63,446 nucleotides of DNA, filler included, from Thermoplasmatota archaeon (GCA_041623215.1; 5 parts of 5 records of this genome joined end to end with filler, not necessarily neighbours in it); one strand, 5' to 3'. Numbered from the whole stretch's first letter, positions 39,001 to 45,000 are shown. Numbers are program-made.

Positions 39001-42000
39001 GGACGCCTTTTTGCACCCACCAAACCCCCGACGAGGAGCCTTGTCCGCCGGCGCCCGCGTCATCCGTCGCGCAGCCGGCCAACAGGGATGTGGCAAGTAG
39101 GAGCAGGGGGAGCATCCAGGTCGTGCGCATCGAGCGCCATGCGGCTAACGAATCCATAATCCTTGGCCCCCGCGTGACCTACCACAAGACGGGCGAATCA
39201 AGGACCGCTGGCTCTATGAGGCGAGCACCAAATCCGCTGGGCAAGGGCCAATGTGCTGCCGTTAAGCCGGAAGGCAACAAGTGTCAAGCGTTTGCCAAGA
39301 GCGGCTCGAAGTATTGTGCAGCGCACCAAGGCTACCGACCCNNNNNNNNNNNNNNNNNNNNNNNNNNNNNNNNNNNNNNNNNNNNTTAATTAATTAANNN
39401 NNNNNNNNNNNNNNNNNNNNNNNNNNNNNNNNNNNNNNNNNCTACGGGATTCGAACCCGTGGTAGGCGGGTTAAAAGCCCGCTGCCCTGACCTAGCTAGG
39501 CTAAGGGCCCAAGGGGGGAGTGGCCGGCGACTTGGCAGTTGTTTTTGACGTTGCCGGGCGGTAGTGGCCTGCGTTGGCGTGCGCCGCCCCGGGGGTCGTG
39601 CCCCGTTGCGCACGGGATTGGCCTCCTGGCGGGCCCCGGCTGCAGCCTGTCACGGTCGCTCGAGTGGCCACGGTTCGGGCGCCGGCGCAGGTCGCGAAGG
39701 GTCGAAGCGCATGGTGTAGAGGCCGTAGTTGCCGTCGAAGGTAACCAGCGACCCGTCCGGCATGGCGACGACCTCCTCAATCGTCGGGGCCCAGCGGACG
39801 GGCTCCACGCTGCCCGGTAGGCTTGCGTTGGCAGGCAGGAAAACGCCGGTGCTTTCCAGGTTGTAGAAGGGCGGGGCGGCGTCGGGGAGGGCGTCCGGCG
39901 ACCGGGCCGCGTCCTTGATGGGGGACAAGTCAGCGGCCCAGATGCCGCCGTGGTAAAGGCTCATGAACAGGGTCTCTCCAACCACCGTGAAGTAATGGTT
40001 GCTCCAGGTGTAGCAGCCGCCGCCATCCCATTCAACATCGTGGGGGAGGGTCCACCCAGCCACAATGAAGGGGTCGGCGGGCACGGTCGTATCCAAGACC
40101 CAGACGATGCCCGTGGGGGTGTGCTCGGGGCGGTTGCAATACTCGGGCCCGATGACGGTGTAGTGGCGGTCGTTCCATAGCTCTGGCAGAGGGAAGGCGC
40201 CGTGAACCAGCGTGCCGGCGTCCGGCTCGTACCAACGGCCAACCTCAACGGGGGCCTCCGGGTCAGTAACGTCGAGGACAGTGAGGCCGCCACCGCCCCC
40301 CAAGTAAGCCAGCACTTGGCCCGTTCCAGGATGGGGTGCGATCCAGCCGTCGTGGCCACGTGGCCCGGTCACCGCGGCAAGAGGTCCTTCGCCGGGCGGT
40401 TTGTAGGTGGACAAGAGCCGCAGCTTCGCGCCAGCTGGCGTCTCGACAACTTCGTAGAAGAAGTACCCCGATGCGGTGGGGGTGACGCCGGTGGCCGTCG
40501 TAATCAGCAGCACGTCCCGGTCATCGTAGGCGTAGGGAAGCGCACTGTGCCCGAAGCCAAACAAGGGCTGGTTGTCAGTAATGGTGGGGTTCGATGGGTT
40601 GCTGATGTCCACGAGGATGATATTCATCGGGTAGGGCAGGGGGTCGTTAGCATCGGCGAGCACCGTGGTCTTCCCCGAGCACGCGTCGGTCCAAGTCAGC
40701 GTCGGCGTGCGGTCCTCGCTGGTGCTGGGCGAATTGGCTACGCCCGGCAGCGTCCAAGCGGTTGGATTCGGCGGCAGGTTGTCGGTGCCGGCGGACACCA
40801 GGACCACGTGCTTCCCGTCCGGCACAACGGTCGTGTCGTAGATGTAGGTGTGCTCCATGACGAATTCGCCCAGAATACTTGGTGCGCCGGGGTCGGTCAC
40901 GTCGGCAATGGCAAAGGCAACGTCGCTGCGACTTTCAATGGCCGCGATGCGGCGCCCGTCCCGCGTCTCCTGTGCGTCGCCGCACAGGTAGCCGCCCCCG
41001 GATTGTCCGCCGTAGTAGTCGCTCGACCATGGGACGAATCCTAGCACTTCGAAGTTCGGCGTCGTGAGGCCCTCGTGCTGGGCAGCGTCCGTATGGTCGT
41101 GCCCTTCGCCGAAGGCCAAGGCTCGCAAAGACCAACCTTGGTCGACGTCGGTGCCCGGCGCACCCTTGGCTGGGTCTTCACTGTCGATGCAACCGGTTAG
41201 CGCGACCGTCGCAAGCAGACCGAGAATCAACCACGTCGGAACATGGCTCGGGCGGAGGAGGCGGTGACGAGGGCCGTCCATGGGTCCGCGATGGAAGCGC
41301 CTGCTTGAAGGCATCCCTGATGCGGTTGCCGCTTGGCTCATAGGTGGCGCCGGTGATAGCGCCACATGTCCGCGTACGCCCGCCTTAGCATGAACAGCCT
41401 CTTTGGCCGCGTTCCCGCCAAATGGTTCCGGATCGGCATGCGCTTTGTACCTCCCCTACGAAACACCGGGGTTCGCGTGACGTCCATAAGTGCTGATTGG
41501 CGGCGCTGGACACTGACGTTACCCCTGTCGATTCGGACCCGGAACTACGTTGGCACGCACTTTGGCGGAACGCTGTATTCTGCCATGGATCCCCATTACA
41601 TGATTGCCTGGATGCATATACTGGGGCCTGACTACGTGGTATGGGACAAGGCTGCGACCATCCGGTTCCTGCGCCCCGGTCGCGGAACGCTGCATGGAGA
41701 GCTTTGCATTGGCCAGGATGAGGTGGATGGCATTCGAGCCGCATGCCGGGAATCAGGCGACGGCAAGCATGACCATACGTTTCTGTGGCAATGGCTGGAC
41801 CGCGACGATGAGGTTGTGTGCGAAGTGGAGAAGGTCATCCACTTTCGGGAAGTGCGGCCGTAAATCCTGCCGTCCAGAATCGTCGCCAAACCGGGGCAAT
41901 TACATGTCGGCTGGCAGGTCGAAGGGGATGCCGCTTGGCGGCCCGACGGGCCCGTTGCCGCCTCGAAGCTCGGGCGTCGTGCTTGGTCGCTTGGCCAAGC

Positions 42001-45000
42001 GCCCGTCGATGCGAACCAGCATGGCACACAGGTCAAAGGCCGCATCCACCGCGTGCTCCACGATGGGCAAGGAGTCCATCACATGGGGCGCACCGGTTTT
42101 TTCGTCCAACGGGTCGGCGCCGGCGTTGGCAGCAAGGCAACGTGCTAAGTCTCCAAAGCCCGAGGCAATGGCCTCGATAATTAGTGGCGAGCGGCCAGGC
42201 GCGGCGGGGGCCGCCAGCTTGAGTCGGCGTTCCACCTCCCTTTGCCACGCTCCACCGCCGGGAAGACCGCGCCCGTCCAGCAGGATGTGGCTGGCCGACC
42301 GCAAGAGCCGCTCTGCGGTATCCTCAGCCAAGGCCCCATGGGATGCCGTCTGGGTTGGCAGCACCCAGGTGTCGGCGGCACCGGTCTCTCCGCGCACCAG
42401 CACCATGATGGCGTCGTCCCCGCTTCGAAGCCGCCGGACTTGAGCAGCTCGCCATGGCTCGATGCTGGCGCAGCCGGCGCCCGCAGGCGTAGCGCTTAGG
42501 AGGCCCGGGCATGCGGATGCGCCGGTGGCCATTTGCAATTGGTCGAAGCGAGATTTTCGCACATCCGTGGCCACGCTGACGCCTGCCTGAGCCAAGCGGC
42601 TCGCGAGCTCCTCGTCCATGCCCCCCCGGCAGACGATGAAGTCTATGCCAAGCTGGCGGACATGGTCAAGCCGCTCGCGGCGCCACGCCTCTTCGATGGC
42701 CGTCCCCGAGGTGCCCCCGGCCGTGAGGCGCATGGTTGCGGTCGGCCCGCCTCCTCGTAGCGTGGGTTGTTCGTCGCCCGTCACGAAAAGAACCCGTTCC
42801 ATGGAGGTCGCTGCCCCTGGGCCTTTCCCCCGGGTGACCTGTGCTGCCGGATGTTTGCATGGGAGTAAGGTGCCCGCCAACCACAGGGGTTGATGGACAG
42901 CGGCCGCCTGCAAATCGATGGCATCAAGGTCCAGAGCGCCGCCTCGAATCAGCCGGGGCAGCTGCTCGGCAAGGCTATGGGCGAGTGACTGGCCTTCGAG
43001 GCTCGCCACGCTGGCCAGCAGGGTGCTGGTGTCGGACGGTGTGGCCACGGCCTGCAGGAGGGTCAAGGTTTGTCGTCTTGCGAGCGCGATTCCGTCGAGT
43101 GCTGCTGCCGGATGGAACGAATGAAGGCGCATCATCCATCGCGCCGCCAGTAGAATGGCTGTCGTGCCGCCATCCCCACGAGCCGCCTGAACGCTGCGTG
43201 CCAGCGCCACGTACGGGCGGACGCCTCCCACGGACGCTTCGGCCTCGGCCAACGCGGCGGCCCCGCTTCCGGTCAAGACCCCGTTGGCATGTTTCCAGGC
43301 GCCATGGGGTCCATACGTGCCTGAGGCAAACTCCCACAACCAGTCAGCGACACGCTCCGCTTCATCTCGAAGGCCCATGACGTCGCCGTCGTGGGTGTTG
43401 CCGCGCTGAAGCAGGCCCTGCACGGGGCGGGGACCGCCGTGGCGGCTTAACTGAGGTGGACCCAGACGGCCTCACTCGGAACGACGACGCCGCTTGGCGC
43501 GACTGCGTTGGCAAACAGCATGTAATGGCCGGGCGGCGCAACGTGCGGTCCGGGCGGTAGTTCAATCTGAACGGCAGCACCGGGTCCGGAGGGCAACGCG
43601 TAGTTGACCGCAATGACGCGCTGGCTAGAGTCGAAGGCGTGCGTGGTGGCCCCCGGGCGGACTAAGACGAACCCATCCAGCGTCCAGCCGGCGGGGACAC
43701 TCACCCCGCCGATGCCCACCGATTGGCCATACTGGCCCGTGACGCGGGCATCGTCTTGGCCGGTGCCCCCAGACCCGATGCCGTCGATGACGGGGCGTTG
43801 CCCGCCGTCCTGGTGTAGGTAGGCGGGGCTGAAAATCTCGAAGCGTGTTTCCACCTCTTGTGGCTCGTACACAATCGGGGCGTCGGCGTCGCGTCCCTGT
43901 TCCGGGGGGACGGGCAAGGGCACATGGCCACCGACAAGCACGCGACCATCCGGAAGCAGGATGGCGGTGGAATGGTAGCCGCGTTCCACACTCATGGGGG
44001 CCATGACGGTCCATGTGTCGGTGGCGGGATCGTAGGTCTCGGCATTCAGAATCGGCGGGTCCTCTTGGCCGTGGACCACCACATTGTCGTACGCGGCGCC
44101 TCCGACTGCCAACACGCTGCCATCGGGAAGCAGCACGCCATTGTGGTGCCAGCGGCCGAAATTCATCGAGGACCTCATTTCATTGTGAACTGCAAGCGGC
44201 GTCCCGTCGGGCGCTCGCGTAACGTTGTCGTCGTCCAAGGCGGCCAACTCTGTGAAGGGAACCGCAGCGACCGAACGCTGCAAGGTGCCGCCGAAGGTCA
44301 GGAACTGCGGGGCGTAGTCATTGGTTGGGTCTAGCGGTAGCATGACGCTCGAAGCGTGCTGGCGGGCGCCAAAGACGCTCGGGCCCAGATGATTCCAGGT
44401 GCCATCGGCAGCCATCCATTGTTGGATGGACCAATCAGCTTCGCCGGGGTGTTCGCCGAACGGCCCCCACATGGTTCCCACGGTGTTGAAGAACAATTCA
44501 CCTTCCAAGGGGCCACCAGGCAGGTAGGTGAGGCGGGGGTACAACGGCAACGGCACGGGCCGGTCGTCCACGGGAGACCAGCTGCTGCCATCGAAGAGTT
44601 CGCTAACGCCACGTTGGGTGTGGGGCTGCGTCAGATTCGTAATCCCGCTGGCGGCCAAGGCATCGCCGTTAGGCGTTTCGATGAGGCTGGGATACCACCG
44701 GCCGTGCGTCATGTTAGCGACCGTTTCCCATGCACCTTCGCCGTTGGCGCCGGCCCCCGGCACGAAGATGCGGGCGTCGGTGCCCCCTTCCAGAGGCGTG
44801 ATGGCTGGCTGACCCGTTTGCGGGTCCTCCGTTAGAATGTGCCATTCGCTGCTACCTACGGCCAGAACGGTACCGTCGGCTAGGATGGTGTGCCCGGCGC
44901 AGAATAGGTCGTCGCCGGCGCCGCCGCTTTCACCCGGCGTCACGATGGTCATTGTAGCCAAGTCAAGAATTCTGGAATCTGCGCGGTGGGGAGTCACCGT

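What a model noticed while it worked through the whole genome (the two positions that open the first line are those of the whole stretch)
41900..43423. ATPase-dead second chaperonin (pseudo-thermosome) kept across the family
Next to one canonical thermosome (C7), g00990 is a full-length group II chaperonin homolog in which the GDGTT loop, TNDG motif and catalytic Asp are lost, the ring-contact stem loop is deleted and a new conserved C-terminal tail is added. It is predicted to be an ATP-independent assembly factor for a specific client, an archaeal parallel to the eukaryotic BBS6/10/12 proteins. If true it is the first pseudo-chaperonin lineage described in archaea.
Evidence so far: 24% to T. 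acidophilum alpha over 504 aa. Ortholog in 20 of 24 family genomes, 0 of 16 outside at E 1e-30. Alignment of 12 orthologs: none has GDGTT (GDQAT, GDGAT, GDGGT, GDHAT, GDGST, GHHAA), the Asp of ALEDAL is replaced in all, tail LRG..GSP.G.PGD(I/V)PP(L)M conserved; open frames at 33-39% identity. A divergently transcribed membrane gene (g00135 ortholog) flanks it in 11 of 11 relatives. PF00118 search shows one canonical plus one degenerate gene per genome as the rule.
(Added by a program. Inside this text positions count along the whole contig: they may not be those of the stretch shown here. "Call 12" and the like, gene names such as g00115 and contig names such as C1 are that model's own, and its searches are not shown. 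The text may have been shortened before it was handed on; [...] marks where a part breaks off. The agent that wrote the report below was given it as the finding of a first reader that could run no searches.)

Follow-up and report, generated by a model that had tools for sequence, protein, structure and literature searches.

The report
Lidless dead chaperonin with membrane partner
One family of uncultured archaea keeps a second, heavily remodelled copy of the protein-folding cage subunit that has lost its ATP-splitting residues and has an unconserved lid, carries a fixed tail, and sits head-to-head with a membrane-protein gene found only in that family, so it likely works as a passive ring serving that membrane protein rather than as a folding machine.

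Summary
Real, intact gene under purifying selection (window 41900-43423, minus strand, 507 aa) with a full group II chaperonin fold (AlphaFold pLDDT 86). Found in 30 of 32 family genomes and 0 of 119 other class genomes. The hydrolytic residues are gone: catalytic Asp 0/56 (mostly Arg), sensing Lys 0/56, stem-loop Asp 1/56. The lid is unconserved.

- The P-loop is remodelled, not lost (Asp kept 50/55).
- The stem loop is kept; the deletion is a ~25-residue C-terminal equatorial segment.
- The presumed ring-ring Arg/Asp pair survives.

The C-terminal tail is the most conserved part. A family-only membrane gene of no known family or fold (29/32) lies head-to-head with it in 26 of 28 genomes holding both, but not in this genome.

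Best reading (0.38): an ATP-independent open ring that works with that membrane protein. It is not the only archaeal pseudo-chaperonin: 29 of 105 other hits lack the catalytic Asp, and this scan found six such cases on other DNA. My paper searches found none in print. New variant of a known kind.

The parts
41900..43423 (-). Pseudo-chaperonin gene, 507 aa, full equatorial-intermediate-apical group II fold
   Evidence: AlphaFold2 pLDDT 86.3, pTM 0.84; Foldseek E 2e-23, TM up to 0.77; VIA Z up to 34.7, rmsd 5.3 over 453 residues
43307..43312 (-). Gly38-Pro39 nucleotide-pocket dipeptide, kept
   Evidence: 54/54 each
43160..43177 (-). Remodelled P-loop GDGGTT (residues 83-88): Gly and mostly Asp kept, first Thr lost
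42695..42766 (-). Degenerate helical protrusion (lid), about residues 220-243
   Evidence: column conservation 0.30 in 56 orthologs vs 0.79 in 41 canonical subunits; length varies by 13 residues; pLDDT 52-56
42299..42313 (-). E371-R372-L-L-R375: Arg in place of the catalytic Asp (T. acidophilum D390, Mm-cpn D386); new invariant Arg375
   Evidence: R 44, A 7, K 3, S 1, G 1, D 0 of 56; R375 56/56; register fixed by the alignment to 1a6d
42242..42262 (-). PGGG motif kept, followed by a new invariant Trp393
   Evidence: G389 54/56, W393 56/56
42092..42103 (-). Junction of the ~25-residue deletion (T. acidophilum alpha 459-487) in the C-terminal equatorial domain
   Evidence: 104 of 105 non-family hits keep 32-41 residues here, the other is a truncated protein
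41903..41968 (-). Conserved C-terminal tail, family consensus LRGG..G..GSP.GMPGD(I/V)PPLM; the G000 copy is a divergent form
   Evidence: last 7 residues 0.87 conserved, the highest segment; kept intact in P0096, which has lost the pocket motifs; pLDDT 51-56 in the monomer
43445..43452 (-). GTTAAGCC box 27 nt before the GTG: likely TATA-like element; overlaps the stop codon of the upstream gene
   Evidence: same box at the same spacing in L008 and L011; inferred, not tested
41366..41863 (+). Convergent DUF4442 hot-dog-fold gene: conserved neighbour, probably not part of the system
   Evidence: downstream in 11 of 29 loci examined with about 1.5 kb flanks

Best explanation
This is an intact, selected chaperonin paralog whose ATP-hydrolysis residues are replaced and whose lid is unconserved, and it likely assembles into a permanently open, ATP-independent ring that works with the family's orphan membrane protein, probably docking on it through the conserved C-terminal tail.

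Shown: fold, residue losses, deletion, tail conservation, family restriction, co-occurrence and head-to-head linkage.

Inferred, with my odds: no hydrolysis (~0.9); no lid closure, so no folding cycle (~0.8); ring formation through the retained intra-ring sheet and R/D pair (~0.55); functional partnership with the membrane protein (~0.6); the tail as the docking peptide (~0.35). In this reading the ring is a holdase or scaffold at the inner membrane face that holds or assembles the membrane protein's oligomer, or hands clients to it. Arg372 may fill the phosphate site in place of Mg-ATP.
For: Hydrolytic Asp60/Asp386 and sensing Lys161 are defined in PMC6765261 (passages); their columns hold D in 1/56, D in 0/56 and K in 0/56 orthologs. 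The lid is the least conserved body segment, 0.30. Ring elements are kept: stem-loop K-L-V, C-terminal R471/D473 54/56 and 56/56, K/R/H411 and D437 52/56 each; equatorial segment 411-461 (canonical numbering) is the best-kept body segment, 0.66. dN/dS 0.17-0.43 in the 8 of 9 pairs where it could be computed. The tail is the most conserved segment and survives in P0096 when the pocket does not. The membrane gene is family-only: 29/32 family genomes, 0 of 244 non-family genomes of the phylum, with no Pfam or NCBIfam family above cut-off. It is adjacent and divergent in 26/28 genomes, with closely spaced starts and back-to-back TATA-like boxes. Its most conserved parts, the 226-244 loop and the C-terminal 245-280 segment (0.67-0.74), include the loop predicted cytoplasmic by the positive-inside rule. 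Codon usage (rank 1145 vs 1) and dS (0.67-1.2 vs 0.20-0.37 in three matched pairs) argue against stoichiometric co-assembly with the canonical subunit.
Against: No physical evidence of binding or of oligomeric state. In G000 and G001 the two genes are unlinked. Gene order is partly conserved here anyway: a convergent transcription-regulator gene stays beside the membrane gene in 6 of 9 regions, so linkage may be partly inherited synteny. Tail/loop covariation reduces to one clade, with a counter-example in G009. The Arg372-Asp84 coupling (Asp kept in 46/46 with Arg/Lys vs 3/9 without) has a counter-example: G001 has lost the Asp but keeps the Arg. G38-P39, PGGG, D450 and most P-loop Asp residues are kept, so nucleotide binding may survive. 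The N-terminal strand of the intra-ring sheet is missing or unaligned in about half of the orthologs.
Confidence: 0.38

Rival explanations
1. BBS-like adaptor for the canonical thermosome: it joins the canonical complex (as a minor subunit, or as a whole ring stacked on a canonical ring) and uses its tail to bring the active folding ring to one client or membrane site.
For: The R429/D455-equivalent pair and intra-ring strands are kept. There is one canonical gene per family genome to pair with. BBS6/12 link BBS7 to CCT in this way (PMC5534436, passages).
Against: A lid that varies in length and sequence would fit poorly in a closing iris. The canonical subunits show no sign of accommodating it: mean distance 0.18 vs 1.10 for the paralog. 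Codon usage suggests far lower abundance.
Confidence: 0.27
2. Non-ring reuse of the fold: a monomer or dimer that acts as a binding or regulatory partner of the membrane protein (or of something else), with no chaperone role, as predicted for BBS and CCT8L proteins.
For: 25-residue equatorial deletion and partial loss of the N-terminal strand. New invariant residues W181, Q118, W393 and R375 suggest new internal packing. MKKS is reported as a free monomer (PMC2846930, passages).
Against: The C-terminal R-x-D strand, the stem-loop strand and the K/R411-D437 pair are all conserved, which is easiest to explain by subunit contacts.
Confidence: 0.2
3. Still a nucleotide-driven machine with rewired chemistry: nearly invariant Glu371, one residue before the lost Asp, acts as the base, giving slow ATP turnover or ADP/ATP sensing.
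For: E371 54/56; G38-P39 54/54; D84 50/55; second Thr 42/55; G389 54/56; D450 56/56.
Against: Both hydrolytic Asp residues, the sensing Lys and the first Thr are lost. The deleted segment includes the loop I recall as contacting the adenine. At least six orthologs lack the P-loop Asp yet are kept.
Confidence: 0.1
4. Slowly decaying duplicate whose linkage to the membrane gene is an accident of origin.
For: 33-40% identity between orthologs, low codon adaptation, linkage broken in one genus.
Against: Open frames with no stop inside any listed match, 30/32 retention, dN/dS under 0.45, ten invariant columns in 56 sequences and a fixed tail.
Confidence: 0.05

Closest known systems
Archaeal thermosome subunits (group II chaperonin; T. 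acidophilum alpha 1a6d, Mm-cpn 5w79/3rus; TIGR02339)
   Same: Three-domain fold; GP, PGGG, N-x-G-x-D and R-x-D motifs; stem-loop strand; R429/D455-equivalent pair.
   Different: 97 bits vs a cut-off of 671 for TIGR02339. Hydrolytic Asp pair, sensing Lys and first P-loop Thr lost; lid unconserved; 25-residue equatorial deletion; fixed tail instead of a low-complexity Gly-Met tail; net charge shifted towards basic (-12..+16 vs -31..0).
Eukaryotic chaperonin-like proteins MKKS/BBS6, BBS10, BBS12 and CCT8L
   Same: Diverged group II paralogs with GP kept and the hydrolysis motif altered, thought to act without ATP-driven folding (PMC2846930, PMC5534436; passages read).
   Different: Independent origin (BBS proteins derive from CCT8 per PMC5534436). 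BBS proteins gained insertions; this lineage has a deletion. No client or CCT-type partner shown here; the linked gene is a membrane protein.
Other catalytically degenerate archaeal thermosome paralogs (Alkanophagales, Brockarchaeota/Thermoproteota, Geothermarchaeota, a Freyarchaeota tandem fusion; split chaperonin-glutaredoxin in the same class)
   Same: Full or split group II fold with the catalytic Asp replaced.
   Different: Separate clades (quick tree). The 105 other hits keep the segment deleted here (104/105; the split pair is also shortened there) and lack this tail. No description found in my paper searches.
Chlamydial variant chaperonins GroEL2/GroEL3 (NF038370, NF038369)
   Same: Lineage-restricted, functionally diverged chaperonin paralogs (PMC1892554, passages; NCBIfam names seen).
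   Different: Group I, bacterial, unrelated origin; the query does not match these models.

Membership tests
Cpn60/TCP-1 superfamily, group II branch | PF00118 match above cut-off and equatorial-intermediate-apical fold closest to group II structures | tested here: met
   96.8 vs 34.3 bits; Foldseek and VIA top hits are all group II
Canonical thermosome subunit | Family HMM score (TIGR02339, NF041082/3) above cut-off | tested here: not met
   97/671, 74/450, 74/400 bits
Canonical thermosome subunit | GDGTT(T/S) P-loop | tested here: not met
   no ortholog has GDGTT; Asp kept in 50/55
Canonical thermosome subunit | Hydrolytic Asp60 and Asp386, sensing Lys161 (Mm-cpn numbering, PMC6765261) | tested here: not met
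   1/56, 0/56, 0/56
Canonical thermosome subunit | Conserved helical protrusion (built-in lid) | tested here: not met
   a segment is present but unconserved, 0.30 vs 0.79, and variable in length
Canonical thermosome subunit | Intra-ring beta-sheet (termini plus stem loop) | tested here: inconclusive
   stem-loop and C-terminal strands kept; N-terminal strand present in about half
Canonical thermosome subunit | Double-ring assembly and ATP-dependent folding | not testable with these tools
   complex prediction not available; needs biochemistry
BBS6/10/12 chaperonin-like proteins | Descent from CCT8, with specific insertions | tested here: not met
   closest to thermosome models, CCT-theta 15.9 bits; a deletion rather than insertions
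BBS6/10/12 chaperonin-like proteins | Altered hydrolysis motif with Gly-Pro kept (works like) | tested here: met
   against PMC2846930 passages
BBS6/10/12 chaperonin-like proteins | Bridges a specific client to the canonical chaperonin | not testable with these tools
   no client identified

The most novel reading that the evidence does not exclude
A two-part membrane machine new to archaea: a chaperonin ring that has given up ATP and its lid has become the cytoplasmic cap of an oligomeric orphan membrane protein with a long external coiled coil. It docks by its fixed tails and feeds or gates cargo at the membrane.
Probability: 0.15. Interest if true: 0.85.

Novelty: new variant of a known kind. 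Interest (0 to 1): 0.52.

Why it matters
Reviews describe archaeal group II subunits, as far as studied, as building ordinary hexadecameric thermosomes (PMC6420498, passages). This lineage shows how far the fold can be remodelled under selection (ATP site, lid and part of the equatorial base altered, tail fixed) and names a candidate partner. It offers a small, expressible two-gene test of how a chaperonin turns into a non-folding adaptor, the transition inferred for BBS6/10/12. Its value is reduced because hydrolysis-dead thermosome paralogs arose many times in archaea, the host family is uncultured, and the partnership is genomic inference only.

Tried and rejected
- Tail as a mimic of the FtsZ C-terminal anchor peptide (resemblance recalled from bacterial FtsZ): rejected, because the two complete G000 FtsZ frames end in the archaeal-type GIDFVL / GIEFIH. 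No other G000 frame of credible length ends like the tail.
- Tail/membrane-loop covariation (tail Gly to bulky residue with YPG to YPH/YPS): five genomes but one clade on the membrane tree, and G009 has YPS with a normal tail. Not used.
- Mirror-tree: r 0.67, no higher than with the canonical gene (0.71, 0.65); partial r 0.39 on 13 non-independent genomes. Not used.
- Arg372-Asp84 bridge: suggestive on the tree but G001 breaks it; kept only as an idea.
- Single-ring reading from the deletion: weakened when the R429/D455-equivalent pair proved conserved.
- Fold of the membrane protein: AlphaFold pLDDT 89.5, no Foldseek hit at E<=0.001, VIA only generic helical hairpins at Z<=9.7, ESM Atlas no usable hit. 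This does not show that the fold is new.
- Origin of the paralog: long stem; not placed. A weak grouping with Poseidoniales-type paralogs P0056/P0074 (SH-aLRT 81) may be long-branch attraction. Both protein trees were the quick method.
- Expression: no RNA holder listed.
- Sigma-70 promoter scan not informative for an archaeon.
- The search for related loci gave only one already-known locus.
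Full report
Observation. The window is a concatenation of contigs; the finding lies on G000:C49. Positions 41900-43423 on the minus strand are one open frame of 507 codons from GTG. A GTTAAGCC box 27 nt upstream, present at the same spacing in relatives, supports that start (inferred). The protein scores 96.8 bits on PF00118 but only 97 on TIGR02339 (cut-off 671), while the genome's other chaperonin on C7 scores 739. 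The best solved-structure match is T. acidophilum alpha. AlphaFold2 on 29 orthologs gives a confident three-domain chaperonin (pLDDT 86.3, pTM 0.84) that matches group II structures (TM up to 0.77; Z up to 34.7). The host is a Thermoplasmatota archaeon by the names on relatives; the runs holding this DNA are marine metagenomes of one study.

Distribution and selection. Orthologs occur in 30 of 32 family genomes (both misses 79% complete) and in none of 119 other genomes of the class. The whole-library profile search gave about 40 clusters of this family, then a drop to ordinary thermosome-level scores. The family is one clade on a long stem (quick trees), so its origin is not placed. dN/dS is 0.17-0.43 in 8 of 9 pairs; one pair was saturated.

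What changed. The numbers come from a 56-sequence alignment and a joint alignment with 41 canonical subunits. PMC6765261 (passages) names Asp60 and Asp386 as the hydrolytic residues and Lys161 as the sensor. Those columns hold Asp in 1/56, Asp in 0/56 (Arg 44, Ala 7, Lys 3, Ser 1, Gly 1) and Lys in 0/56. The P-loop is remodelled rather than lost: Gly 55/55, Asp 50/55, first Thr replaced (Ala 43, Gly 6, Ser 5), second Thr 42/55. Gly38-Pro39, PGGG and Asp450 are kept, so nucleotide binding is not excluded. The lid is the least conserved body segment (0.30 against 0.79) and varies in length. A segment matching T. acidophilum 459-487 is deleted in all members, while 104 of 105 non-family hits keep it. 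From recall, not from a call, this segment holds the loop that contacts the adenine and part of the ring-ring face.

What did not change. The deleted segment is not the stem loop. The stem loop belongs to the intra-ring sheet (PMC6765261) and is kept, as are the C-terminal R-x-D strand and the residues at T. acidophilum R429 and D455 (K/R/H 52/56, D 52/56), which I recall as the inter-ring salt bridge. The C-terminal tail is the most conserved segment (0.87 over the last 7 residues). It resembles a frozen version of the canonical Gly-Met tail and survives unchanged in P0096, where the pocket motifs are gone.

The neighbour. Upstream and divergent lies a 240-400 aa membrane protein: two N-terminal helices, a long acidic coiled coil predicted outside, and two C-terminal hydrophobic segments around a conserved PS.SVGFKPYPG loop, ending in GQI.L. 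It is in 29 of 32 family genomes and in 0 of 244 non-family genomes sampled across the phylum, with no family or fold assignment. The two genes are head-to-head in 26 of 28 genomes holding both, with closely spaced starts. In G000 and G001, one genus, they are apart: the membrane gene is on G000:C4:15505-16344. Where only one of the two is found (G008, G010, G030) it lies at a contig edge. Against over-reading: a convergent regulator gene also stays beside the membrane gene in 6 of 9 longer regions, so some linkage is inherited order; covariation and mirror-tree tests gave nothing usable.

How it likely works. Without the water-activating Asp pair, the sensor Lys and a conserved lid, the protein should neither hydrolyse ATP nor close a chamber. 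With ring-contact residues kept, it likely still forms an open ring. Selection is concentrated on the equatorial base and the tail, not on the lid, which points to a docking function. The only co-born, co-retained, linked gene I found is the membrane protein, whose conserved parts include a loop predicted to face the cytoplasm. I therefore commit to an ATP-independent open ring acting as holdase or scaffold for that protein, with the tail as the probable contact (0.38). Rivals: BBS-like adaptor on the canonical thermosome (0.27), non-ring reuse (0.20), rewired slow ATPase or sensor (0.10), decaying duplicate (0.05). Codon rank 1145 of 1316 against 1 for the canonical gene (rough) argues against a stoichiometric subunit. 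The complex prediction that would separate these was not available.

Comparison and novelty. It works like the eukaryotic chaperonin-like proteins in having GP kept and the hydrolysis motif altered (PMC2846930 and PMC5534436, passages read), but it is not a member of them, and it fails the canonical thermosome tests. Paper searches (CC-licensed PMC and bioRxiv only) found no archaeal pseudo-chaperonin. PMC6420498 (passages) says all known archaeal subunits form thermosomes as far as studied. PMC5852551, PMC5934643, PMC8346469, PMC1892554 and bioRxiv 10.1101/2024.01.14.575554 were seen as passages; the last reports membrane binding by a canonical Sulfolobus subunit. No supplements were read, and subscription papers on Methanosarcina or Sulfolobus paralogs were not searchable.

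The phenomenon is not unique to this family. 29 of 105 other top hits, a set biased towards divergent proteins, have no Asp in the catalytic column (hand count, automatic alignment), including clusters named Brockarchaeota/Thermoproteota, Alkanophagales and Geothermarchaeota. A split, glutaredoxin-fused degenerate chaperonin occurs in 11 of 151 class genomes. Six earlier notes of this scan describe dead thermosome paralogs elsewhere, none matching this sequence. What is particular here is the combination of deletion, degenerate lid, fixed tail and orphan membrane partner. Verdict: real, a new variant of a known kind, interest 0.52.

Noticed in passing
L054:1420-3210 (G045:C23) and L055:1961-3718 (G059:C39); also L095-L098: A separate degenerate chaperonin split into two genes right after a G-C-x-G-G-V-C motif in the apical domain (stop, ribosome-binding site, new ATG). 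The C-terminal piece is fused to a CPxC glutaredoxin. Catalytic motifs are lost. Found in 11 of 151 class genomes across four families, none in this family. Possibly a redox-linked chaperone.
   Followed up: partly
P0041 (1057 aa, named Freyarchaeota) and P0043 (1047 aa): Tandem fusions of two thermosome subunits; the second unit has an altered P-loop and lacks the catalytic Asp.
   Followed up: no
L074:5006-5860 (G000:C4:15505-16359, minus): The family-only orphan membrane protein with a variable-length external coiled coil and invariant C-terminal GQI.L; worth study on its own.
   Followed up: partly
P0096: Extreme family member with P-loop, GP and PGGG gone but the tail intact.
   Followed up: no
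L048 (G033:C67), L049 (G037:C12), L050 (G032:C56): Sister families in the same order carry two or three near-canonical thermosome genes, some with GDGTKS or GDGTST loops.
   Followed up: no
P0056, P0074, P0137: Divergent tail-less second thermosome of Poseidoniales-type marine archaea with a GDGVT loop but both catalytic Asp residues kept.
   Followed up: partly
P0148: Thermosome subunit with a long intein-like insertion at the GDG/TT P-loop (intein identity judged by eye).
   Followed up: no
window 43447-45363 (-): Secreted galactose-oxidase-like kelch protein directly upstream of the pseudo-chaperonin in both genomes of this genus, in place of the membrane gene.
   Followed up: partly
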